NCBI GenBank assembly: GCA_951812955.1
Contig: OX638340.1
Location: 3,552,001 to 3,616,000 of the forward strand
Reading direction: 5' to 3'
Source: an uncultured Gemmatimonadota bacterium
GTDB taxonomy: Bacteria; JAAXHH01
Length of the DNA: 64,000 nt
Positions within the stretch are counted from its first letter, which is position 1; every line of letters starts with the position of its first letter. The position numbers and the translations under genes are program-made. A model generated the notes under the pieces. It saw only the letters and a program-made list of their open reading frames with translations. It did no database searches and had not been told where the DNA came from. Below, one piece after another: positions 1 to 42,829 of the stretch.

Positions 1-901
1 GGGTATCGCCGACCTTCCCCGTGCTGCCGTACATCACCGAACCCGTGATTCCGTGCCGCATGTCGTCGGCCCCGGTGTTGAGTACGTAGTCGGCGTTCAG
101 CGCCAGCGGCCGTCCGTTCACGGTCTGGGTATACTGGCCGCTGAAGTTGATCATCCTGAATTCGGACAGGTATCCGGTGCGGTCCGCGTTGGGTCGGTTC
201 GAATTCGCCGCAACGATCAGAGCGGGAGACTTCAGGTTCTGCGCGGCATAGAGGGAATCCGCGCCCCCCACGGTATAGTAGGCGACGGCCAGCGTCTGGG
301 ACCTGCCGGGCTGGTTAAATCGGGCCATGGCCTGTCCGCCCAGGAAATAGGTACGGTCGAGGTCCTTCACCGGAGAGGCCACCTGGTTGATCATGAACTG
401 GCCGAAATTCAGGCCGAAGGTCGCGGAGCCGTCAGCGCTCTTCGTGGTGATCTGCTGGGCGAGTCCCTCCGGCGAGAGATCGCTGTCCAGGACGACCTGG
501 GTAGGCCGGAAGAAGGGCAGGGGAAACTTGCCCGCGGTCAGGGTGAGCGAGGGATTGGGCCTGATGCGCGCGTACATCCAGGAAATATAGGGGTACTCGC
601 GTTCAAACAGGTCGCCGTAACTCATCCAGTCGGCAACGGTGATCGCCTTGGGATTGCCCGTCATGACCTTGCCGGTCACGTCGATGCGGTCCGTCACGCG
701 CAGCGTAGCATTCAGGAAGGCCCCGTACATGAAGCGGTTGACCGCCCGGCTGCCGTCCTGATAGTCGCCCTGCAGCCGCGATCTGATCATCCCGTTCCAG
801 GTGAAACGGTCGTCTTCCTGGGCGGCGACGGGAGCGACGGGAACGACGTTCGTCAACGCGGTGAGAAAAAGGACGCACAACAGGAAGTATCGGATCGGCA
901 T
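1..901 (-). CDS. Partial secreted or outer-membrane protein with N-terminal signal peptide. Start ATG at 901; the gene runs off the left edge of the window.
   Basis: The reverse-complement translation from 901 reads MPIRYFLLCVLFLTALTNVVPVAPVAAQEDDRFTWNG... with no stop to position 1. Alternating hydrophobic, Gly and aromatic residues suggest a beta-barrel or porin. The track ORF 53..1030 (+) lies antisense to this gene. Confidence 0.5.
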   Translation of the reverse strand, partial: MPIRYFLLCVLFLTALTNVVPVAPVAAQEDDRFTWNGMIRSRLQGDYQDGSRAVNRFMYGAFLNATLRVTDRIDVTGKVMTGNPKAITVADWMSYGDLFEREYPYISWMYARIRPNPSLTLTAGKFPLPFFRPTQVVLDSDLSPEGLAQQITTKSADGSATFGLNFGQFMINQVASPVKDLDRTYFLGGQAMARFNQPGRSQTLAVAYYTVGGADSLYAAQNLKSPALIVAANSNRPNADRTGYLSEFRMINFSGQYTQTVNGRPLALNADYVLNTGADDMRHGITGSVMYGSTGKVGDT

Positions 902-1406
902 GGGTTCATCCCCTCCAGTGTACCCGTTCTTTTTTGCTACGTACAGTGGGCCGGAATCGCCGAAACACGCTGGAAATCGATTCATTTAACAGAGGTGAGT
1001 CTTGAACAAGGGATAGTATGGACGCGGTGATTTCGTGTCAAGAAATATCGAAAGGTCTTCTGCCCACGTCGCATGGAATTGAAAAGGCGTCATCGACCCG
1101 GTCCGGCCATCCGATGACCGGTGGGCGACAGACGGCGTCCGAGGGACGACAGGCAGCGTCCGGGGAACTGCGTCAGGTATAATGTTAGAATGAAGCAGGC
1201 GGTTCGGGTGTATCCAGATTGTATACACATATCCGGACGGCACGGCAACTCGTGTTCAGTTACTTTAGGGTTGTCAGGACACCTTCGGCCGGGTATATTC
1301 GACTTCGTTATCGAATCGGACCATCCAGGCGGAATCGGGTGGGTCGATTTCGACCGCGACCGGCGATTATGCGCGGTCGTGTCCATTCATTCCAGGGAGA
1401 ACATTC

Positions 1407-2669
1407 ATGTTGAACAGTATCATGGAGAAAGTCGACTCCGGCCTTTCCCGCCGCCGTTTTCTCACGGGCGCGCTGGCGGCCGGCGCCGCGCTCACTCTGG
1501 CCGATCGCCTTGCCCTAGCCCAGACCATGGCCTCGAGCGGCCTTACCGCCAAGGACATCCACGGGATCGGCGTCGAGCCGGGTCTCGTCCGCATGGCGCT
1601 GAACGAAAACCCGATCGGGCCGTCCCCGATGGCGCTTAAAGCCATCGCCGAGAACATGTTCAAGATCAACCGGTATTCCTTCGGCGGCGGGGACATAACT
1701 GGCGCGCTGGCCGAATTCGACGGGATCGAACTCCCGCCCCCTCGTGAATTGCCGGCCGGTATGCGTGGCATGGGCGGTGGCGGGGGATTCCGTTTCAGGC
1801 GGCAGACGCCCTTCTTCATCACGGCGGGTTCCGGCGCGCTCCTTACCCAGATTGCCCTGGCCTACCTTAGCAAGGGTGGAACCGAGGTGATCGAGGCGGA
1901 CATGGGGTATGGCGATGTGTCGGGTGAGGCCGAAGACTACCAGGAAGCGGGCATCGACGTGAACATCATCCGCGTACCCGTGAAGAACTACGAGCACGAC
2001 CTGGACGCCATGCTCGCGGCGATCACGCCGAAGACCTCCGTGGTGGTCATCACCAACCCGAACAACCCGACCGGGACGCTGCTGTCCTTCGAAGAAACCG
2101 AGAAGTTCGTGAACTCCGTGCCTGAGAACGTGCTCGTGGTCATCGACGAGGCCTACATTCACTTCGTCAAGGACCCGGCGTACCAGACCGCGGCGTCGCT
2201 TGCCACCACACACGACAACGTGATCGTCACGCGGACCTTTTCCAAGGTTTTCGGCATGCCGGGCATGCGCCTCGGGTACGGGATCTGTAGCCAGGCCATC
2301 CAGGAGAAGCTCGGGTTCTACAGCACGGGGCGCGCCAACGCCCTGGCCTACGCCGCGGGCGAGGCTTCGCTCAAGGACAGGAGCCACTACGACCGTTCCC
2401 GGGCGGTGGTCCTGCATTTCAGGGAAAGACTTGAAGAGGAGTTTACGAAGATGGGGCTGGAATTCATCCCGTCGGAAAGCAACTTCATGATGGTCAACCT
2501 GGGCAAGCCCTCCATGAATATCATGCGGGAGATGTTCCGCAAGGGCGTCATGGTGACGAACCGGCGCAGGCAGCAGATGCCCACGTGGATTCGCGTATCC
2601 TCCGGCGACGAGCGGGAAACGGAAGTCTTCCTCAACGTGCTGAAAGAAGTCCTGGGTAAAACCAGCTAG
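1407..2669 (+). CDS. Class I/II PLP aminotransferase of the HisC (histidinol-phosphate aminotransferase) family, carrying an N-terminal twin-arginine (Tat) signal peptide.
   Basis: The N-terminus SRRRFLTGALAAGAALTLA is a Tat motif. Family motifs LNENPIGPSP, NPNNPTGT, VIDEAY and TFSKVFGMPGMRLGY are present, the last with the lysine in FSK. Confidence 0.8.
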   Translation: MLNSIMEKVDSGLSRRRFLTGALAAGAALTLADRLALAQTMASSGLTAKDIHGIGVEPGLVRMALNENPIGPSPMALKAIAENMFKINRYSFGGGDITGALAEFDGIELPPPRELPAGMRGMGGGGGFRFRRQTPFFITAGSGALLTQIALAYLSKGGTEVIEADMGYGDVSGEAEDYQEAGIDVNIIRVPVKNYEHDLDAMLAAITPKTSVVVITNPNNPTGTLLSFEETEKFVNSVPENVLVVIDEAYIHFVKDPAYQTAASLATTHDNVIVTRTFSKVFGMPGMRLGYGICSQAIQEKLGFYSTGRANALAYAAGEASLKDRSHYDRSRAVVLHFRERLEEEFTKMGLEFIPSESNFMMVNLGKPSMNIMREMFRKGVMVTNRRRQQMPTWIRVSSGDERETEVFLNVLKEVLGKTS

Positions 2670-2685: not shown

Positions 2686-4020
2686 ATGTCGCAAATCCGC
2701 CTGCCCCTGGTCGTTACGTGGGGCCTGGTCGTCCTGTGGTTCGTGCTGGACGTCACGGCCCTTATGGCGGGCGGCCCATTTAATGTCAACTGGACCATAC
2801 CGGTCGCCGCGGCCTGGCTCTCGGTCGTATGTCTCCGCGCGGGCAGAGGTTACGGCGGGTTCCTGTCCGCGGTTCTGCTCTATACGGCAGGCGTCCGCCT
2901 GCTGATCATACTGCTGGCGATCCTGGGCAAGACGACCGGGCTCGATGGCGCGTACTTCACCTGGGGACGCAGCGCGCTATTCGGCCTGGTCATTCCCCAT
3001 GTCGTGCTGTGGCCGGTCGTCACCTTTATCGCGGGTACGCTGATCTGGCCGGTGACGGCCCTGGTTATGCGCCGGAGACAGGTATCCTATCGAGGCGCGG
3101 CCATGGGCGTTTTGATCATCCTTCTGCTCGTCTTCATCGGCCTGCCCTACCTGATTTCGACCCTGTACACCGGCAGCGTGGGACCTCGCCGCAAGGCGCA
3201 GGACACCCCCGCGGACCACGGGATGGTCTACGAGGACGTCACGCTGACGACTTCCGACGGCCTGAACCTGGCCGCATGGTACGTCCCGAACGAGACCGGC
3301 CGCGGCACGGTCATTTACTGTCACGGCCATCTCAACCACAGGGGTCAGATGCTCGACCAGGCAGCCTTTATTCATGAAAACGGCTTCAATGGGCTCCTGT
3401 TCGATTTCCGGCGGCATGGGGACAGCGAAGGCAATCTGACGACATTCGGCTATTTCGAGTGGCGCGATGCACAGGCGGCCCTGAGATACGCGGTCGACGT
3501 GCGGGGAGAGCAAGGTCCGGTCATTTTGTGGGGTGTTTCCATGGGCGCGGCCACCGCGTTGCTCACGGCAGCTGAAGAGCCCGAGATCGACGCCGTCATC
3601 GCCGAAAGCAGTTTCTACGCGGCCTCCGAAACGCTGCGCGGCGACCTGAACCGGATGTTCGGCCTGCCCACGGTGCCCTTCGGGTTTCTGACGGGTACCA
3701 TAACGGAACTTCGGGTGGGCATCAAGCTTGATGCCCTGGACATCGGCCGCGCGGTGTCCGGCCTGAAGGAAGCTTCCGTGCTTCTGGTGGGCGGCACGGC
3801 GGATCGCCGCATGCCGGTATCGAACAACGAACGGCTATACGACCAGATACCCGGAACGCGCAAGGAGATCTACGTGGTGGAGGGCGCGACCCACGGCGAC
3901 ATTTGGGAAATGGACCGGGAAGCGTACGCGGAGACGGTCCGGCAGTTCCTGGAAAGATATGGTTTGCTCGATGGCCCTGAACCGCCGGCCGGCGAGGAAA
4001 CCGCGGAAGAAACGCTGTAG
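2686..4020 (+). CDS. Membrane-anchored alpha/beta hydrolase. About 170 aa of N-terminal transmembrane segments are followed by an esterase or peptidase-like domain.
   Basis: There are several hydrophobic helices at the N-terminus. A GxSxG nucleophile elbow is present as GVSMGAA, together with [19 protein letters not shown] and a C-terminal GATHGD (histidine of the catalytic triad). Confidence 0.75.
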
Positions 4021-5812: not shown

Positions 5813-6838
5813 ATGTCGAAAACAACCTACCGTCTGCATTACAACGAGAACCCCCTCGGTCCCTCTCCGGTGGTGATGGACCGGATCCGGGATCACCTGG
5901 CGGGACTCAGCCTCTACCCGCACCGGGACGACGAAGCGTTGCGAGACTGCCTGGCGGCGTTCTATGGCAGGGGAGTGACGCCTGCGCACCTGTTCTCGAC
6001 ATATAGCGGCTCCGAAGCCCTGGATCTCATCGCGCGGGTTTACCTGGAACCGGGCGACGAGGTCATCGTCTGCGGACCGACCTTCCACGTTTACGCACGG
6101 ACGGCCGAGTGGCAGGGCGCGAAGATCGTCGACGTACCGCTGGACAACCAGGATTTCAGCGTCCGGGTCGACGCGGTCATGCGGGCGGTTACGCCCCGGA
6201 CGCGCCTGGTCTACGTGGGCAATCCTAACAATCCGACGGGGTCGATCGTCACCCGGGACGACATGGACCTGCTCCATATGGGGCTGCCCGACCAGGTGAC
6301 CCTGATATCCGACGAAGTATACCACCACTTCGTGACGCGTCCGGACTACCCGGATTCGCTGGCAAGTGTCGCGGCGGGACGGAACTTGATCGTCCTCCAT
6401 TCTTTCTCGAAGGTCTACGGTTTGGCCGGTCTTCGCGTGGGCGTGGCGATCTCCCGTCCCGACATCATCGACCGGCTGGCGAGATACCGCAGGACCTTCC
6501 ACCTGGGTACGCTGGAGATGGAGGCGGCCATCGCGGCCGTTGGCGACCCGGACCACGTGGCGCGATCCGTGGCGATGGCGGAGCGGGGCAAGAAAAGATG
6601 CTATGCCGCCTTCGATCGTTTGAGGATTACATACTGGCCCAGTGAAGGCAACTTTATCCTGTTCCGAACGCCCATGTTCGCGGACGATCTCGCCGCGCGC
6701 ATGGCCGACCGGGGCATTCTCGTGGGTTCGGGCAGCCGTTTCGGCCTGACGCATGCCATCCGGGTCAGCATCGGGCTCCCGGAAGCCAACCAGGCTTTCA
6801 TTTCGGCCCTTGAGCATATTCTGGCCGACGAAAGTTAG
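5813..6838 (+). CDS. HisC-like class I/II aminotransferase. It is cytoplasmic, with no signal peptide.
   Basis: MSKTTYRLHYNENPLGPSP, GNPNNPTG, DEVY and SFSKVYGLAGLRVG are present. The long track ORF 4820..6838 is an upstream extension of this gene in the same frame. Confidence 0.85.
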   Translation: MSKTTYRLHYNENPLGPSPVVMDRIRDHLAGLSLYPHRDDEALRDCLAAFYGRGVTPAHLFSTYSGSEALDLIARVYLEPGDEVIVCGPTFHVYARTAEWQGAKIVDVPLDNQDFSVRVDAVMRAVTPRTRLVYVGNPNNPTGSIVTRDDMDLLHMGLPDQVTLISDEVYHHFVTRPDYPDSLASVAAGRNLIVLHSFSKVYGLAGLRVGVAISRPDIIDRLARYRRTFHLGTLEMEAAIAAVGDPDHVARSVAMAERGKKRCYAAFDRLRITYWPSEGNFILFRTPMFADDLAARMADRGILVGSGSRFGLTHAIRVSIGLPEANQAFISALEHILADES

Positions 6839-6860
6839 CATGCGCGTACCGTCGGGCGAC

Positions 6861-7003
6861 GCCATTCGGTCGCCCTTGCGCCGCCGGTCACCCAGGCGCC
6901 GCCTTTCGGTCGATCTGGCACCGCGTTCTGGTCGATCTGGCGCCGCGTTCCGGTCGTCCTTGCGCTGCCTTTCGGTCGATCTGGCGCCGCGTTCCGGTCG
7001 TCG
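6861..7003. repeat. Intergenic direct-repeat array with an approximately 32-bp unit (cctttcggtcgatctggcRccgcgttcYggtcg).
   Basis: Two full units lie at 6903-6934 and 6968-6999, with partial copies (gccattcggtcgcccttgcgccgcc and gcgttccggtcgtccttgcgctgcc). Confidence 0.7.
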
Positions 7004-7077
7004 ACAATCAGCGGTATGCCTGCCGCCGACGTCAGGTATATCCGAGCGAAAACTGACAATAGCACGAAGGGAAACGC

Positions 7078-8373
7078 ATGTCACAGACCGCATTGATCGA
7101 ACGGGCGGAAAAAGTCTTCGTCGGCGGGTCGAACGGGGAATTCCGTCTCCCGCCGGAAGCCAACCTTGTGGTGACCCACGGCGATGGCGCGATGATCTAT
7201 GACGCCTCCGGGCGTGAATACGTCGACTTCCTCCTGGGTTCCGGCCCCATGATCCTCGGTCACGGCCATCCGGAAGTCGTGACGGCGGTGACGCGCCAGG
7301 TAGCCCGGGGCACCACCTTCATGGCCCTCAACGAGCCGGCCATCCGGCTGGCCGAACGGGTGGTGGACGCCTCGCCATGTGGGGAGAAGGTACGCCTGGT
7401 AATCACCGGATCCGAATCGATTCAGTTCGCCCTGCGGGCCGCCCGGGCCTTCACGGGCCGCGACCGCTGCCTGCGTTTCGAAGGGGGTTGGCACGGCGTG
7501 AGCGATTCGGCACTGCACGGGGCGAGGACGCTGGATCCCGGCGACTATCCTGACACCCTGCCGGACGGCGGCGGCATTCCGCGGAACTGGTCGGCGGACA
7601 TGCTCGCCGCGCCCTTCAACGACGTGGGCCGGGCCACCGAAATCGTGGAACGCCACCACGGCGAACTCGCCGCAATCGTCATCGAGCCCCTCCAGCGATG
7701 TATCCTGCCCCGTCCGGGTTTCTTCGAGGCCATGCGGGCATTGTGCGACCGGCACGGCATCGTCCTCATCTTCGACGAGATTGTCACGGGTTTCCGCATG
7801 GCCTGGGGCGGGGCCCAGGAACGTTACGGCGTGACCGCGGACCTGGCGGCATACGGCAAGACGATCAGCGGCGGATATCCCCTGGCCGCCATGTGCGGCC
7901 GGTCGGACGTGATGGACGTCATGAACGGCTGGCGTCCGGCCGACGATCCGAAACGGGTCATCGCATCGGGCACTTTCAACGGCTATCCCGTGGGCGCCGT
8001 CGCCGGACTGGCCACCCTCGACGTGTTGGAACGGCCCGGGACCTACAAGCGGCTTTTCGCCATGGGCGACCGCGTTACCCGGGAGATCACGGCCATGGGC
8101 GAGCGGCTTTCGGTCCCCCTCCTCGTCGGCGGCGAAGGGCCCGTGCTCCAGGTATTGTTCACCAGCGAAAAGGAAATCGTCGACTACGGATCCATGTTTC
8201 GCGCCGACAAGCAGAAGGCCTATGTCTTCGGCGTCGAGATGATCAAGCGTGGGCTCTTCGTCAGTCCCTACGAGAAGATCTATCTGTCCCTGGTCCATAC
8301 GGACGGTCACGTCGACCGTCTCCTGGAGACGGCGGAGGAAGTGTTGCGGGACGTGATCGCGAAAATGGATTGA
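7078..8373 (+). CDS. Class III PLP aminotransferase, similar to glutamate-1-semialdehyde 2,1-aminomutase.
   Basis: GSGPMILGHGHPEV, FDEIVTGFR and the lysine in AAYGKTISGGYP are typical of the HemL, GabT or ArgD fold. Confidence 0.85.
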   Translation: MSQTALIERAEKVFVGGSNGEFRLPPEANLVVTHGDGAMIYDASGREYVDFLLGSGPMILGHGHPEVVTAVTRQVARGTTFMALNEPAIRLAERVVDASPCGEKVRLVITGSESIQFALRAARAFTGRDRCLRFEGGWHGVSDSALHGARTLDPGDYPDTLPDGGGIPRNWSADMLAAPFNDVGRATEIVERHHGELAAIVIEPLQRCILPRPGFFEAMRALCDRHGIVLIFDEIVTGFRMAWGGAQERYGVTADLAAYGKTISGGYPLAAMCGRSDVMDVMNGWRPADDPKRVIASGTFNGYPVGAVAGLATLDVLERPGTYKRLFAMGDRVTREITAMGERLSVPLLVGGEGPVLQVLFTSEKEIVDYGSMFRADKQKAYVFGVEMIKRGLFVSPYEKIYLSLVHTDGHVDRLLETAEEVLRDVIAKMD

Positions 8374-24026: not shown

Positions 24027-25442
24027 CTAGACAGCGCCCTCCTGCCACGGTCCCCAGATGGCGTAGGTCAGCCCGGGCCGCTGCATGTTGACGAAGAGGG
24101 TCTCGCCGTCGGGACTGAAGGTCGCCCCGGCGAACTCGCCCCGGTAGGCGATGCCGGCCACGTCCCGGGCCACGTCGAACACGCGCCCGTCCTTCGTCAG
24201 GCCCCGGATGTGCTGTACGCCGTCCCGGTTGTCCTCGCACACGATCAGGCCGCCGCGGGGACTCACGCAGACGTTGTCCGGCGCTGCCATGAGCGAAGCG
24301 TCGGGCGATTCGAACAACAGGGTCAACACGCCTTTGTCTTCCCCGTCGGGTTGGAATTCCCACACCTGTCCGAGGCGCTCGTCGCCTCCTCGCGTCGACG
24401 TGAAGAAGATGCGGCCGTTTCCGTACCAACATCCTTCAAGGCGGTCGAAGGCGGCGCCGCCCTTGTCCGCCCCTTCCTTGTATACCAGGTTCCGGTCCAG
24501 GCCAGCGCCCGCCGGATCGGGATCTTCGATCTCCACCCAGGTCACGGGCAGGACCGTGCCCATGGTCTGTCCACTGCGCGTGTCGTATCCCGGTTGATCC
24601 TCGACCGCGAGCATACGCAGGCGGCCGCCCCGGGCGAGCTCGCCGGGATGATCGGGAAGGTACTGGAAGAATCCGCACGGATTCTGGTCTTCGGTTTCAT
24701 ACACGGCCCCGGTGGCGGGATCGACGGCGATGGCCTCGTGGACGAAACGTCCCATTCCGGTAAGGGGTTCGGCCGCCACACTCTCCTCGGCATCGGCGGG
24801 CACCTCGAAGCAGTATCCGTGGTTCCTGTCGTATCCGCCCAGGTACTGCAGCCAGCGAGCACTGAAGAACCGGTCCGTGCCCATGGTGGTCTCTTCACAG
24901 GTGATCCAGGAGCCCCACGGCGTGGGGCCGCCGGCGCAGTTGTGCAGCGTCCCGCCCACGCTCACGAAATCGCGGACCAGTTCGCGGGTCCGAGGATCGA
25001 CGATGAGCGTCGTAACCCCGCCGGGCGCGGTGGGATCGTAGGCTGCCGACTGGTTGCCGATGGCCTCGACCGGACTGCCCGTGTTTATTTCGTGATTGCG
25101 CAGTAGCCGGACCATGCCGTCCTCCGCGGAGAAGGCCGCCATGCCGTCGTGGGCGGCCGGCGTGGGATGGCCGTCCGACATGAGGCCGCCCTTCTTTCCG
25201 AACACGGTATAGGCGAATTTCGGCGGCAGTTCGAGCATGGTCTCGCCGGTGTTGTGAGACGTCACGGGAGAAAGCGGCCCATATCCGCCCTCCCCCCGGG
25301 AAGCCTGCAGGCTGGCGGATCCGTCGGACATGGCCCGCGCGCGGCGGGCGATAAGGCCCTGGAGCGCCGATGCGCCGAAAGTCATGGCGCCAAGGGCCAC
25401 GGCGGAATGTCGAATGAATGAGCGTCGGTTCAGTCGGGACAC
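24027..25442 (-). CDS. Tat-secreted protein of the PhoX/DUF839 family, a putative secreted phosphatase.
   Basis: The likely start is GTG 25442 after AAAGGAGA, giving MSRLNRRSFIRHSAVALGAMTFGASA, a Tat signal. A motif like that of PhoX, GTLHNCAGGPTPWGSWITCEE, is present. The track ORF extends 31 codons upstream. Confidence 0.6.
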   Translation of the reverse strand: MSRLNRRSFIRHSAVALGAMTFGASALQGLIARRARAMSDGSASLQASRGEGGYGPLSPVTSHNTGETMLELPPKFAYTVFGKKGGLMSDGHPTPAAHDGMAAFSAEDGMVRLLRNHEINTGSPVEAIGNQSAAYDPTAPGGVTTLIVDPRTRELVRDFVSVGGTLHNCAGGPTPWGSWITCEETTMGTDRFFSARWLQYLGGYDRNHGYCFEVPADAEESVAAEPLTGMGRFVHEAIAVDPATGAVYETEDQNPCGFFQYLPDHPGELARGGRLRMLAVEDQPGYDTRSGQTMGTVLPVTWVEIEDPDPAGAGLDRNLVYKEGADKGGAAFDRLEGCWYGNGRIFFTSTRGGDERLGQVWEFQPDGEDKGVLTLLFESPDASLMAAPDNVCVSPRGGLIVCEDNRDGVQHIRGLTKDGRVFDVARDVAGIAYRGEFAGATFSPDGETLFVNMQRPGLTYAIWGPWQEGAV

Positions 25443-25600
25443 GTGAGCAATTCTCCTTTGGCGTTGACTCCGCCTGGTGTTGACTCCGCAATGTCGGCGA
25501 TGCGGAGGACGTGTCGGGTAAAATACAGAATCCAATATTCAATTTACGGTAGCGGATCGCTAAAATCAAGACGCCACTGCAGGTTATTCCGATCGGATAT

Positions 25601-40019: not shown

Positions 40020-41375
40020 ATGCTTCCCATGCCAGATACCCCAGAACGTGACACACTCTCCCGCCGCGCCGCCCTAAAGATCGGTGGCGGCGCCCTGCTC
40101 GGCGCGGCCCTGCTCGGCTGCGGAGGGAGCAGTGACGACCGGAAGGTCTTGCGATTCATGACGGCGCAGACCCTGGAAAAGCACCGGTCCCTCGAGCCGC
40201 TCATCGCCGAGTTCATGGAGATCCATCCCGGTATCCGGATCGAACACGTGAAGGTGCCCTGGGACCAGGCCCATTCGAAGTATCTCACGGCGATCCTCGG
40301 CGGCGCGCCACCCGACGTCATGACCATTCCGAGCTGGTGGGTGACCGAGTTCCGCGCCATGGGCGCCCTCGAGGACCTCGGCCCGTGGGTACGGGACTGG
40401 CCCCATCTGCAAGGGTATACGGAGCAGGTGAAACGGCTGACCCGGGCGACCATGGCCTTCGACGGGGACCGGGTCTTCGGCCTGCCCACGGAAGTAGCCG
40501 TTCGTTCCATGTTCTACCGCACCGAATGGCTCCAGGAACACGGTCTCGAGCCGGCGCAGACGCGCGAGGAGTGGCGCACACTGCTCGAGCAGATCACGGA
40601 TCCGGGCAGGCAGCGCTACGGGTACGCCCTCCGTGGCGCCCGGGGCGGTTTCTGGTCGTGGTGGCCCATTGCCCAGGAATACGCCGGGTCCAACGCGTGG
40701 TTCGACGATGACCACCGGTGCATTATCAATAGTCCGGAGCACGTGGCGGGACTGTCATACTGGAACGACCTCTACCAGGATGGGCTCGCACCCCCCGACT
40801 CACTGAACTGGGGTTTCAACGAGCTGGTCCAGGGATTCTGGTCCGGACTCTGCGGTACGATGGAACAGGATCCGGAGGTGGTCCGGACCTGCCTGGAGCA
40901 CGGCCTGGACGAAGATACGCTCACCATCACGGTCATGCCCACCGGCCCCAGGGCCCGCGTGGCCCTGTCCGACGGGGGGTATACGTCCATGTCTTCGGCT
41001 TCCCGGAACAAGGACGAAGCCTGGACCTTTCTCAGCTGGCTGATGGCGCCCGAGCAGCGGCTTCGGTACTGCAGGGACGTCAACATGATCCCGCCCTTTG
41101 CCGAGAACCTGAGGGATCCTGCGTTCGGGCAGGGCCTCTATCAGTCCTTCGTGGAAATGGTGAGCGATCCGGCAATCATCCAGAACTGGTATCCCAACTA
41201 CCTGCCGGAAATGGGCGAGTTTCTCGAGGTGCGGGTGACCGAGGAGCACCAGAAGATGCTGCTGAAGAGGCAGTCTCCTCGGGATGCCCTCGACCGCCTG
41301 GCCGATTTCCTGACCAGCGCACAGAAGAACTACGTGGACCGTCACGGCCCGGACACGCCCCGGCCGCCGGCATAA
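40020..41375 (+). CDS. ABC transporter substrate-binding lipoprotein (carbohydrate family), copy 1.
   Basis: The signal is RRAALKIGGGALLGAALLGCGGS, followed by a type-I periplasmic binding fold. Confidence 0.8.
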   Translation: MLPMPDTPERDTLSRRAALKIGGGALLGAALLGCGGSSDDRKVLRFMTAQTLEKHRSLEPLIAEFMEIHPGIRIEHVKVPWDQAHSKYLTAILGGAPPDVMTIPSWWVTEFRAMGALEDLGPWVRDWPHLQGYTEQVKRLTRATMAFDGDRVFGLPTEVAVRSMFYRTEWLQEHGLEPAQTREEWRTLLEQITDPGRQRYGYALRGARGGFWSWWPIAQEYAGSNAWFDDDHRCIINSPEHVAGLSYWNDLYQDGLAPPDSLNWGFNELVQGFWSGLCGTMEQDPEVVRTCLEHGLDEDTLTITVMPTGPRARVALSDGGYTSMSSASRNKDEAWTFLSWLMAPEQRLRYCRDVNMIPPFAENLRDPAFGQGLYQSFVEMVSDPAIIQNWYPNYLPEMGEFLEVRVTEEHQKMLLKRQSPRDALDRLADFLTSAQKNYVDRHGPDTPRPPA

Positions 41376-41428: not shown

Positions 41429-42829
41429 TTGATGCGCCATCACGCGAATCTCGGTTCGAAACCCCGTCGAATTACCCGTCGCGACATGTTGCGGCTCGGT
41501 AGCGCGGCCTTTGCGGGCGCGACGGTCCTCGGCTGCGGCGGTGGAGACGGCCGACGGACCGTCACGGTCTTCAGCCCAATGGGCGAAGTGAAGAATGTCG
41601 CCCTGGGCCGGCAGGTCGAACGCTTCATGGGGTTGCGGGACGACTTGCGCGTGGAGTTGATCCCCGCGCCGTGGGACCAGGGGCACGCCAAGCTGCTGAC
41701 CATGATCGCCGGCGGCAACCCGCCCGACGTGATCACGGCGACGGGCCAGTGGATGGCCGAATTCCGTGCCATGGGTGCCATAGAGGACCTGACACCCTGG
41801 TACGCGTCGTGGCCGCATCGCGATGCCTTCACGCGGACGGGCCTGCTCCGGTGCGAGAGCAGCATGGCCATCGAGGACGGCCGGGTATACGGGCTGCCGC
41901 TGGAACTGACGACGCGGGCCATGTTCTATCGCAGGCGGTGGCTGGACGAGCAGGGCCTGGAACCCGCGGCGACCCGGACCGGGTGGCGCGCGTTGCTCGA
42001 GCAGATTACGGACCGGGACAGGGACCGTTACGGCTACGCCCTGCGCGGGGCCCGGGGCGGATTCTGGACCTGGTGGCCCATACTGGAGGAGTTCTCCGGT
42101 ACGAACGAGTGGTTCGACGGGGATCACAATTGCATCATCAACAGTCCGGCGCACGTGGAAGGGCTGACCTACTGGAACGACATTTACCAGGACGGCCTGG
42201 CGCCGGTGGACTCGGTGAACTGGGGCTACAACGAACTGGTGCAGGGTTTCTGGTCCGGGGTCTGCGGTTGCATCGAACAGGACCCTGAAGTGGTGCGCAC
42301 CTGCCTGGAACACGGCATGGACGAATCGACCCTGATTACCGCCGCCATGCCGGCCGGTCCCCGGGCCCACGTGGCTTCCAACGACATCTGGATCCTCTCG
42401 ATCTCAAGCGGCGCGAAGAATCCGGACGACGCCCTGGCGTTTTACGAATGGATGATGTCGCCGGAACAGCTTATCGCATACAGCAAGGACGCGAGCGTAC
42501 TTCCTACGGTGAAGCAGGGCATGGACGACCCCTATTTCGGCCAGGGATTTCTGCGGCCGTTCATGGACATGGCCACCGACGCGAGGTTCCTGCAAAACTG
42601 GTACCCGAGCTACCTACCGGAAATGGGCGAATTCATCGAGGTGCTGGTCACCGAAGAACAGCAGAAGATGCTCCTGGGAAGGCAGTCTCCGCGGGAAACG
42701 CTCGACCGGCTGGCAGACTTCCTGGACAGGGCCCAGCGGCGTCACGTGGATCGGCACGGTCCCGATACGCCCAGGCCGCCCAGGCCGTCCGCACCAATCG
42801 AATCGTCCGCGCCGTCCGGCACCCTGTAA
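41429..42829 (+). CDS. ABC transporter substrate-binding lipoprotein, a tandem paralog of the preceding gene.
   Basis: It is collinear with copy 1 (YGYALRGARGGFW, NELVQGFWSG, PEVVRTCLEHG). The signal is RRDMLRLGSAAFAGATVLGCGG. Confidence 0.8.
   Translation: MMRHHANLGSKPRRITRRDMLRLGSAAFAGATVLGCGGGDGRRTVTVFSPMGEVKNVALGRQVERFMGLRDDLRVELIPAPWDQGHAKLLTMIAGGNPPDVITATGQWMAEFRAMGAIEDLTPWYASWPHRDAFTRTGLLRCESSMAIEDGRVYGLPLELTTRAMFYRRRWLDEQGLEPAATRTGWRALLEQITDRDRDRYGYALRGARGGFWTWWPILEEFSGTNEWFDGDHNCIINSPAHVEGLTYWNDIYQDGLAPVDSVNWGYNELVQGFWSGVCGCIEQDPEVVRTCLEHGMDESTLITAAMPAGPRAHVASNDIWILSISSGAKNPDDALAFYEWMMSPEQLIAYSKDASVLPTVKQGMDDPYFGQGFLRPFMDMATDARFLQNWYPSYLPEMGEFIEVLVTEEQQKMLLGRQSPRETLDRLADFLDRAQRRHVDRHGPDTPRPPRPSAPIESSAPSGTL

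What the first reader, a model, noticed from the sequence alone, without database searches (positions are those of the whole stretch)
1407..1535. HisC-family PLP aminotransferase with a twin-arginine export signal
HisC-like aminotransferases are normally cytoplasmic. Here the first roughly 40 residues form a textbook Tat signal, SRRRFLTGALAAGAALTLADRLALA, followed directly by the conserved LNENPIGP start of the catalytic domain. Tat exports folded, cofactor-loaded proteins, which is the route a PLP enzyme would need. A periplasmic transaminase implies extracytoplasmic amino-group chemistry. A second, signal-less HisC paralog lies 4 kb downstream at 5813-6838.
Basis: seen in the sequence. Interest (0 to 1): 0.5.

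Follow-up and report, generated by a model that had tools for sequence, protein, structure and literature searches.

The report
Exported (Tat-signal) HisC-like PLP aminotransferase
The gene at 1407-2669 encodes a HisC-like, vitamin-B6-dependent aminotransferase with a genuine, conserved twin-arginine export signal, so it most likely works in the periplasm; one such enzyme (PtaA of Pseudomonas) is already characterised, so this is an uncharacterised relative of a known but rare kind.

Summary
ORF 1407-2669 (+, 420 aa) starts at an ATG with an AGGGAG ribosome-binding site. It encodes SRRRFLT (residues 14-20), a 15-residue uncharged Ala/Gly-rich stretch, a basic c-region and A-L-A|Q (cleavage after A38), followed by an intact fold-type-I PLP domain (NPNNPTG, DEAY, SFSK with K280).

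The start codon and ribosome-binding site are identical in five relatives. Codons 13-39 change almost only synonymously. R15/R16/F18 are at least 90% conserved and A38 is invariant in 54 homologues down to 42% identity. A few relatives carry a Sec-type signal, or none, in its place.

A PhoX phosphatase in the same window also has a twin-arginine N-terminus, which fits a host that uses Tat.

The idea is not new. The NCBIfam models PRK09105 (NF006580) and PtaA (NF051461) align from the RR motif onward, and PtaA is an experimentally shown Tat-exported periplasmic transaminase. The window protein scores below every curated cut-off (hisC 205/276.6, PRK09105 229/444, PtaA 186/500). It belongs to a separate small clade from uncultured Latescibacterota/Gemmatimonadota.

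The substrate is unknown. The only conserved partner is a membrane-anchored alpha/beta hydrolase immediately downstream. I rate it a new member of a known kind, of moderate interest.

The parts
1271..1299 (+). Promoter-like site (TTGTCA-17-TATATT), about 108 nt upstream of the start codon, inside a conserved intergenic block
   Evidence: Consensus scan, 10 of 12 matches. The TATATT block is conserved in L010, L011 and L012. This is a consensus match only; function is not shown.
1394..1399 (+). Ribosome-binding site AGGGAG, 7 nt before the ATG
   Evidence: Read from the sequence. GGGAG/AGGAGG and the ATG are conserved in all six aligned loci.
1407..2669 (+). Whole gene: 420-aa precursor of the exported HisC-like PLP aminotransferase
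   Evidence: ORF. PF00155 at 150 bits. Homologues of 97-42% identity cover the full length. AlphaFold model with pLDDT 86 and a HisC fold, TM-score 0.86 to 3ly1 normalised to the target.
1407..1520 (+). Predicted Tat signal peptide, residues 1-38: variable n-region, S14-R15-R16-R17-F18-L19-T20, h-region F18-A32, c-region D33-R34-L35-A36-L37-A38, predicted cleavage between A38 and Q39
   Evidence: TAT_signal PF10518 aligns residues 13-32. NF006580 profile positions 3-80 align to residues 11-92. The model has low confidence over residues 1-40.
1449..1454 (+). Twin-arginine codons R15 and R16
   Evidence: At least 90% conserved in 54 homologues. Only third-position changes in relatives.
1521..1598 (+). 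Conserved N-terminal segment of the mature protein (Q39-A64), between the signal and the NENP motif
   Evidence: Family alignment. I51, G55, G59 and V61 are conserved.
1725..1805 (+). Clade-specific variable low-complexity insert (about residues 107-133, Gly-rich), absent from the cytoplasmic paralogue
   Evidence: A 22-residue gap opposite it in the paralogue alignment. Length varies widely, and it is Met/Gln/Gly-rich in relatives. pLDDT below 50 at residues 123-128.
2244..2246 (+). Codon of K280, the predicted PLP Schiff-base lysine in the T-F-S-K motif
   Evidence: T277, F278, S279 and K280 are invariant in 54 homologues, as are N217-G223 (NPNNPTG) and D247-Y250 (DEAY). Assignment of these motifs to PLP binding rests on my knowledge of HisC structures.
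2686..4020 (+). Downstream gene, 16 nt after the aminotransferase stop: 444-aa alpha/beta hydrolase (Hydrolase_4/S33-like) with 4-6 N-terminal transmembrane segments. Probably co-transcribed and the only conserved partner.
   Evidence: Pfam. The gene pair is kept in L001/L002, L010-L012, L007 (54% identical hydrolase) and L008 (51%). No plus-strand terminator-like site between the two genes. Topology could not be resolved.
5813..6838 (+). Signal-less HisC-like paralogue (341 aa), cytoplasmic by default
   Evidence: Scores 254 bits against the TIGR01141 cut-off of 276.55.

Best explanation
The gene encodes a precursor of a fold-type-I, HisC-like PLP enzyme, most likely a transaminase. It folds and binds PLP in the cytoplasm, presumably as the homodimer typical of HisC. 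Its N-terminal SRRRFLT signal is recognised by the Tat translocase, which carries the folded protein across the inner membrane. Signal peptidase I then cleaves it after A36-L37-A38. The mature enzyme acts in the periplasm of a diderm, uncultured Latescibacterota/Gemmatimonadota-type bacterium, exchanging an amino group and a keto group on an extracytoplasmic substrate, probably together with the co-transcribed membrane-anchored alpha/beta hydrolase.

Shown here: the signal architecture, its purifying selection, its conservation, its replacement by other signal types in relatives, an intact PLP site, and homology of the N-terminus to models of the experimentally exported PtaA family.

Inferred: actual export, the cleavage site, transaminase rather than other PLP chemistry, and the link to the hydrolase. 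The substrate is unknown.
For: 1. Signal anatomy. SRRRFLT matches the S/T-R-R-x-F-L-K consensus at six of seven positions. It is followed by a 15-residue uncharged h-region (mean Kyte-Doolittle 1.77), a basic residue in the c-region (R34) and A-x-A.
2. True start. ATG 1407 and AGGGAG are invariant in relatives of 76-91% identity, and a promoter-like site lies about 108 nt upstream.
3. Selection. Codons 13-39 show 5-15 synonymous against 0-5 non-synonymous changes, while the n-region evolves freely.
4. Conservation. R15, R16 and F18 are at least 90% conserved and A38 is invariant in 54 homologues down to 42% identity. 35 of 54 match Pfam TAT_signal.
5. Signal swapping. P0086, P0087, P0103, P0106 and P0108 have non-RR hydrophobic signals with the same -1 Ala. 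Their starts were checked in L006 and L090, where the in-frame upstream sequence contains no Tat-type signal and AGGAG sites precede the called start codons.
6. Precedent. NF006580 and NF051461 (PtaA) align from residue 11-13, whereas cytoplasmic hisC TIGR01141 aligns only from residue 55. An Acidobacteriota protein with FSRRSFLQLS scores 500 bits against the NF006580 cut-off of 444. PtaA is reported as exported by Tat with PLP bound (PMC6206403).
7. Host use of Tat signals. PhoX at 24027-25535(-) starts with LNRRSFIRHSAVALGAMTFGASA. That PhoX is a classic Tat substrate is my own knowledge.
8. Intact catalytic motifs and a confident HisC fold.
Against: - No export experiment or dedicated predictor (TatP, SignalP) was available.
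- The window protein alone falls just below the curated Tat-signal thresholds: 18.4 against 22.7 bits, and 16.5 against 16.7.
- No tatA or tatC gene lies in the window (regex scan for TatA only).
- The protein scores below every curated aminotransferase equivalog cut-off, so its reaction cannot be transferred from a characterised enzyme.
- Genomic context is not conserved across the wider clade.
- The source of the periplasmic amino donor or acceptor is unexplained, as it also is for PtaA.
Confidence: 0.78

Rival explanations
1. The protein is exported, but it carries out a different PLP reaction in the periplasm (decarboxylation as in CobD, cyclodehydration as in GntC, or elimination) rather than transamination.
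For: The HisC family contains non-transaminases. The protein also hits CobD (TIGR01140, 134 bits) and GntC (NF041364, 91 bits), and it is below the cut-offs of all transaminase equivalogs. A single-substrate reaction would remove the need for a periplasmic co-substrate.
Against: The scores for hisC (205 bits), PRK09105 (229) and PtaA (186) are clearly higher than those for CobD or GntC. The only characterised exported relative is a plain transaminase.
Confidence: 0.13
2. The N-terminal segment is not cleaved. It acts as a signal anchor that tethers the enzyme to the periplasmic face of the inner membrane.
For: The cleavage site is only predicted. Some Tat substrates remain anchored. The partner hydrolase is membrane-embedded.
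Against: The -1 Ala is invariant and A-x-A is kept in both the Tat-type and Sec-type variants, as expected for a signal peptidase I site. The h-region is short and Ala/Gly-rich.
Confidence: 0.07
3. It is a cytoplasmic histidinol-phosphate aminotransferase, as public annotations say. The RR segment would then be an annotation artefact (wrong start) or a non-functional relic.
For: Sources name close homologues 'histidinol-phosphate transaminase' (P0022, P0027). M41 could in principle serve as an internal start.
Against: - The start codon and ribosome-binding site upstream of the RR motif are conserved.
- The signal is under purifying selection.
- M41 is not conserved.
- The protein is below the hisC equivalog cut-off, 205 against 276.55.
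- Relatives swap in Sec-type signals.
Confidence: 0.02

Closest known systems
PtaA, periplasmic transaminase A of Pseudomonas (NCBIfam NF051461; Ringel, Draeger & Brueser 2017, as reviewed in PMC6206403)
   Same: Both are HisC-like fold-type-I PLP enzymes with an N-terminal twin-arginine signal. The PtaA model aligns to the window protein from residue 13, the RR motif, through the catalytic domain. PtaA is reported as exported by Tat with PLP bound and active in the periplasm.
   Different: The window protein scores only 186 bits against the 500-bit cut-off. There are no pyoverdine or other siderophore genes nearby. It comes from a different phylum, carries a clade-specific low-complexity insert, and falls in a different branch of a rough NJ tree.
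NCBIfam NF006580 (PRK09105) subfamily, 'pyridoxal phosphate-dependent aminotransferase'
   Same: This is the best-scoring curated model. It aligns from residue 11 (profile position 3), so the model itself contains the signal region. A bona fide member (L065, 500 bits) carries FSRRSFLQLS.
   Different: The window protein scores 229 bits against the 444-bit cut-off. The rough tree places PRK09105-type proteins (Acidobacteriota, Microbulbifer, Alteromonas) in a separate Tat-bearing clade. No function is assigned to the subfamily.
Cytoplasmic histidinol-phosphate aminotransferase HisC (TIGR01141; PDB 3ffh, 1fg3 and others)
   Same: Same fold and PLP-binding motifs.
   Different: HisC has no signal peptide, and the alignment begins only at residue 55. 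The window protein scores 205 bits against 276.55, and it has a 22-residue insert.
PvdN, the Tat-exported PLP enzyme of pyoverdine tailoring
   Same: Another PLP enzyme reported as exported folded, with its cofactor, by Tat.
   Different: Different reaction: it converts the glutamate side chain to succinamide. That PvdN belongs to a different aminotransferase class (class V-like) is my own knowledge and was not tested here.

Membership tests
Twin-arginine (Tat) signal peptides | S/T-R-R-x-F-L-K consensus near the N-terminus | tested here: met
   S14-R15-R16-R17-F18-L19-T20 matches six of seven positions. The family consensus is SRRGFLKG.
Twin-arginine (Tat) signal peptides | Moderately hydrophobic uncharged h-region, a c-region that often carries a basic residue, and an A-x-A signal peptidase site | tested here: met
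   F18-A32 is 15 uncharged residues with mean Kyte-Doolittle 1.77. R34 lies in the c-region. A36-L37-A38 is followed by Q39, and A38 is invariant in 54 sequences.
Twin-arginine (Tat) signal peptides | Score above the curated profile thresholds (PF10518, TIGR01409) | tested here: inconclusive
   PF10518 scores 18.4 against 22.7 and TIGR01409 scores 16.5 against 16.7, just below both. 35 of 54 family members hit PF10518 at E<=0.01, the best at 2e-5.
Twin-arginine (Tat) signal peptides | Export depends on TatABC and on the RR pair | not testable with these tools
   This needs an experiment. Indirect support: a PhoX with an RR signal lies in the same window.
Class I/II (fold-type I) PLP aminotransferases, PF00155 | Profile match above threshold and catalytic Lys, Asp and Asn motifs | tested here: met
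   150 bits against a 19.7-bit threshold. NPNNPTG, DEAY and TFSK (K280) are invariant. The predicted structure has a HisC fold.
HisC equivalog (TIGR01141, histidinol-phosphate transaminase) | Score of at least 276.55 bits | tested here: not met
   204.8 bits.
PRK09105 subfamily (NF006580) | Score of at least 444 bits | tested here: not met
   229.2 bits. A positive control, L065, scores 500.4 bits.
PtaA equivalog (NF051461) | Score of at least 500 bits | tested here: not met
   185.9 bits.
PtaA equivalog (NF051461) | Host produces pyoverdine | not tested
   No siderophore genes appear among the neighbours of the window gene or its close relatives. PtaA genes usually lie outside pyoverdine clusters, so local context is weak evidence either way.

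The most novel reading that the evidence does not exclude
The window protein represents a second lineage of exported HisC-like PLP enzymes, distinct from PRK09105/PtaA and wholly uncharacterised. This lineage has repeatedly switched between Tat, Sec and no signal. One contig (L090) carries all three versions within 6 kb. In sponge- or coral-associated Latescibacterota/Gemmatimonadota the enzyme is paired with a membrane-anchored hydrolase as a periplasmic amine-processing module. The Sec-type members would imply that a HisC-fold enzyme can acquire PLP outside the cytoplasm.
Probability: 0.3. Interest if true: 0.55.

Novelty: new member of a known kind. Interest (0 to 1): 0.35.

Why it matters
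Periplasmic transaminases are rare and poorly understood. PtaA was the only characterised example my literature searches turned up, and how its cofactor is recycled outside the cytoplasm is still open.

This work shows that HisC-like enzymes with Tat signals are widespread. They occur in Acidobacteriota, Gammaproteobacteria, Gloeobacterales, Latescibacterota and Gemmatimonadota, and they form at least two clades. Public annotation often labels them 'histidinol-phosphate transaminase'.

That has two consequences. Metabolic reconstructions of these uncultured bacteria may wrongly credit them with a histidine-biosynthesis step. And a pool of extracytoplasmic amino-group chemistry remains unexplored. 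For this particular gene, though, the result is confirmatory rather than surprising.

Tried and rejected
1. Phosph(on)ate-amine substrate. I raised this because relatives have a divergent porin plus PBP_like_2 genes upstream, and because HisC and CobD act on phosphorylated amines. I dropped it: those binding proteins are TupA/ModA-like tungstate/molybdate binders.

2. Function from conserved neighbours. Only the aminotransferase-hydrolase pair persists. More distant relatives sit beside Opp-type ABC transporters (L004, L009), a ferredoxin and a GntR regulator (L003), or a Tat-dependent GMC dehydrogenase (L005). The downstream window genes look like sugar-acid catabolism: an HpaI-NOT-DapA-type aldolase and a galactonate dehydratase.

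3. Topology of the hydrolase from hydrophobicity and the positive-inside rule. The result was ambiguous.

4. Riboswitch or other RNA in the roughly 370-nt upstream region. There were no Rfam matches at E<=1.

5. tatA in the window by motif scan. None was found.

6. The primary PtaA paper (PMC5682972) is not held. I used the review PMC6206403 instead.

7. Substrate-binding residues. The invariant R396 corresponds to the general class-I carboxylate/phosphate-binding Arg. By my own recollection of the E. coli HisC motifs, the second HisC phosphate-binding Arg position is not conserved. No substrate inference could be made.

8. The NJ tree is a rough, midpoint-rooted distance tree. It does not settle whether the two Tat-bearing clades share one origin.

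Full report
**What is in the sequence.** ORF 1407-2669 on the plus strand encodes 420 residues. AGGGAG lies at 1394-1399, 7 nt before the ATG. The N-terminus reads MLNSIMEKVDSGL-SRRRFLT-GALAAGAALTLA-DRLALA|QTMASS. This gives:
- a variable n-region;
- S14-R15-R16-R17-F18-L19-T20, which matches the Tat consensus S/T-R-R-x-F-L-K at six of seven positions;
- a 15-residue uncharged Ala/Gly/Leu/Thr stretch (F18-A32, mean Kyte-Doolittle 1.77);
- a c-region with a basic residue (R34);
- an A36-L37-A38 site followed by Q39.

There is one inaccuracy. LNENPIGP (residues 65-72) does not follow the signal directly; a conserved 26-residue segment lies between them.

**The start codon is real.** I aligned the upstream DNA and first codons with five relatives of 76-91% protein identity. 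The ATG and the GGGAG/AGGAGG site are identical in all six sequences, while the surrounding non-coding DNA diverges. A sigma-70-like site (TTGTCA-17-TATATT, 1271-1299) sits inside a conserved block about 108 nt upstream. The only Met downstream of the signal (M41) is replaced in some orthologues, for example by AQSLAK and AQSVVK in P0033 and P0036. An internal start is therefore unlikely.

**The signal is under selection.** Across the five pairwise comparisons:
- codons 13-39 (RR motif to A-x-A) show 5-15 synonymous but only 0-5 non-synonymous differences;
- the n-region (codons 2-12) shows 2-9 non-synonymous differences.

In an alignment of 54 homologues down to 42% identity, R15, R16 and F18 are at least 90% conserved and A38 is invariant. 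Of these 54, 35 match Pfam TAT_signal at E<=0.01, the best at 2e-5. The window protein alone is marginally sub-threshold: PF10518 scores 18.4 against 22.7, and TIGR01409 scores 16.5 against 16.7.

A six-frame scan of the window for RR motifs followed by a hydrophobic stretch found three hits, all near the N-terminal end of their open reading frames. Pfam confirmed the other two as a PhoX alkaline phosphatase (24027-25535, minus strand, LNRRSFIRHSAVALGAMTFGASA) and a solute-binding protein (41429-42829). To my knowledge PhoX is a classic Tat substrate, so the host evidently uses this pathway. No tat gene lies in the window.

**Independent evidence for an extracytoplasmic location.** Five relatives (P0086, P0087, P0103, P0106, P0108) lack RR. 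They have a Lys-rich or short n-region, a hydrophobic core and the same -1 Ala, which is the pattern of a Sec-type signal. I checked the starts of two of them in their contigs. In L006 and L090 the in-frame upstream sequence contains no Tat-type signal (an RRR triplet upstream in L006 is not followed by a hydrophobic stretch), and AGGAG sites precede the called start codons.

In L090, three members of the clade lie within 6 kb. One has a Sec-type signal, one has none (MLKHIHSAGLPPGLLRMMDNENP) and one has a Tat signal (FSRRGFLKGAVAGG...). Replacing one export signal with another only makes sense if export matters.

**The catalytic domain is intact.** Pfam Aminotran_1_2 scores 150 bits. NPNNPTG (217-223), DEAY (247-250) and TFSK (277-280) are invariant in the family. 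From my knowledge of E. coli HisC, these correspond to Asn157, Asp184/Tyr187 and Ser213/Lys214.

An AlphaFold2 model built on the family alignment has mean pLDDT 86.3 and pTM 0.83. Confidence is low only over residues 1-40 (the signal) and in the insert (below 50 at residues 123-128). Foldseek finds HisC structures first: 3ffh and 3ly1, with TM-scores of 0.82-0.86 normalised to the target.

Relative to the cytoplasmic paralogue at 5813-6838 (28% identity), the exported protein has the N-terminal extension plus a 22-residue Gly-rich insert. In relatives this insert varies from almost nothing to more than 60 residues and is often Met/Gln/Gly-rich.

**Comparison with known families.**
- NCBIfam scores all fall below the cut-offs: PRK09105 (NF006580) 229 bits against 444; hisC (TIGR01141) 205 against 276.55; PtaA (NF051461) 186 against 500.
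- When only residues 1-100 are scanned, NF006580 aligns residues 11-92 to profile positions 3-80 and PtaA aligns residues 13-92 to positions 4-68. Cytoplasmic hisC aligns only from residue 55. The two curated models therefore include a signal region homologous to this one.
- As a positive control, an Acidobacteriota protein (L065, FSRRSFLQLSAAAAAMQIV...) scores 500 bits on NF006580, above the cut-off, aligned from its residue 7.
- The review PMC6206403 states that PtaA is an ordinary PLP transaminase, unusual only in being active in the periplasm. It is transported folded with PLP by the Tat pathway, it also occurs in species that do not make pyoverdine, and how PLP is regenerated from pyridoxamine in the periplasm is unknown.

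The kind of enzyme is therefore known. This protein is not a member of the curated PtaA or PRK09105 families.

**Distribution.** The closest genomes are MAGs labelled Candidatus Latescibacterota (Plut_88884, 91%) and uncultured Gemmatimonadota (86%). RR-type N-termini on HisC-like proteins also occur in many Acidobacteriota, in Microbulbifer elongatus, Alteromonas, Woeseiaceae and Gloeobacterales, among others.

In the exhaustive 50%-identity representative search, 28 of the 57 top representatives I inspected had RR-type N-termini. Only about 20 clusters align from residue ~10 with more than 230 bits, so the window's own clade is small.

A rough NJ tree separates three groups: a PRK09105-like Tat clade, a second Tat clade containing the window protein, and the cytoplasmic HisC proteins. 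The tree is too crude to say whether the signal arose once.

**Context and function.** The aminotransferase is followed after 16 nt by a 444-aa alpha/beta hydrolase with 4-6 N-terminal transmembrane segments. No plus-strand terminator-like site lies between the two genes. This pair is kept in relatives of 76-91% identity and in L008, where three tandem Tat-type paralogues precede the hydrolase.

Nothing else is conserved:
- The divergent upstream genes in relatives are a Porin_5 protein and TupA/ModA-like tungstate/molybdate binders.
- The downstream genes look like sugar-acid catabolism.
- More distant relatives sit next to Opp-type transporters (L004, L009).
- In L005 the aminotransferase lies 54 nt downstream of a Gluconate_2-dh3 subunit with its own Tat signal and a GMC oxidoreductase. 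This suggests a periplasmic dehydrogenase/transaminase pair in that lineage.

The substrate of the window enzyme cannot be inferred.

**Verdict.** Export, the cleavage site and the chemistry remain inferences. It is a new, uncharacterised member of a known but rare kind, the Tat-exported HisC-like periplasmic PLP enzymes. Public names such as 'histidinol-phosphate transaminase' for its close homologues are probably wrong.

Noticed in passing
L090:6001-12083: Three members of the same aminotransferase clade lie within 6 kb on one contig: one with a Sec-type signal (MKKQIRWLKGLIVIGVALVMG...ALAQS), one with no signal (375 aa) and one with a Tat signal (FSRRGFLKGAVAGG...). This suggests the same chemistry on both sides of the membrane, and possibly PLP loading outside the cytoplasm.
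   Followed up: partly
L008:8904-14591: Three tandem Tat-signal paralogues (53-58% identical to the window protein) are followed by the same type of membrane-anchored alpha/beta hydrolase as in the window.
   Followed up: partly
L005:5586-9272: A 42%-identical Tat-signal aminotransferase lies 54 nt downstream of a Gluconate_2-dh3 subunit with its own Tat signal (LSRRSFLSNTARATGG) and a GMC oxidoreductase. This may be a periplasmic dehydrogenase-transaminase pair.
   Followed up: partly
window 1725-1805: A clade-specific low-complexity insert. It is Gly-rich here (GMGGGGGFRFRR). In relatives it reaches more than 60 residues and is rich in Met, Gln and Gly, which is reminiscent of the Met-rich loops of periplasmic metal-handling proteins. 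It is predicted to be disordered.
   Followed up: partly
window 24027-25535 (-): A PhoX alkaline phosphatase with a twin-arginine N-terminus (LNRRSFIRHSAVALGAMTFGASA). It fits a host that uses the Tat pathway.
   Followed up: partly
window 41429-42829 (+): A solute-binding protein (SBP_bac_1) whose N-terminus combines an RR motif with a lipobox-like LGC (ITRRDMLRLGSAAFAGATVLGCGG). It may be a Tat-exported lipoprotein. A second SBP_bac_1 gene lies just upstream at 40020-41375.
   Followed up: no
window 1-1040 (-): A divergently transcribed Porin_5-family outer-membrane protein with a Sec signal (MPIRYFLLCVLFLTALTNVVPVAPVAAQ) runs off the window start. In relatives it is followed by TupA/ModA-like tungstate/molybdate-binding proteins and an ABC transporter.
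   Followed up: partly
window 1287-1400: A conserved intergenic block (GGGTATATTCGAC...TCGAA, inverted-repeat-like) overlaps the promoter-like -10 element. It is shared with L010, L011 and L012 and could be an operator. No Rfam match.
   Followed up: partly
window 5813-8373: Two further PLP aminotransferases lie a few kb downstream: a signal-less HisC-like paralogue (254 bits against the hisC cut-off of 276.55) and a class-III GSA-aminomutase-like enzyme (338 bits against 398). Neither reaches its equivalog threshold. Both also give weak hits to the guanitoxin GntC and GntE models.
   Followed up: no
P0022, P0027, P0039 and other homologues: Public sources name close homologues of this exported protein 'histidinol-phosphate transaminase'. 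This is probably a mis-annotation, given the signal peptide and the sub-threshold hisC score.
   Followed up: partly
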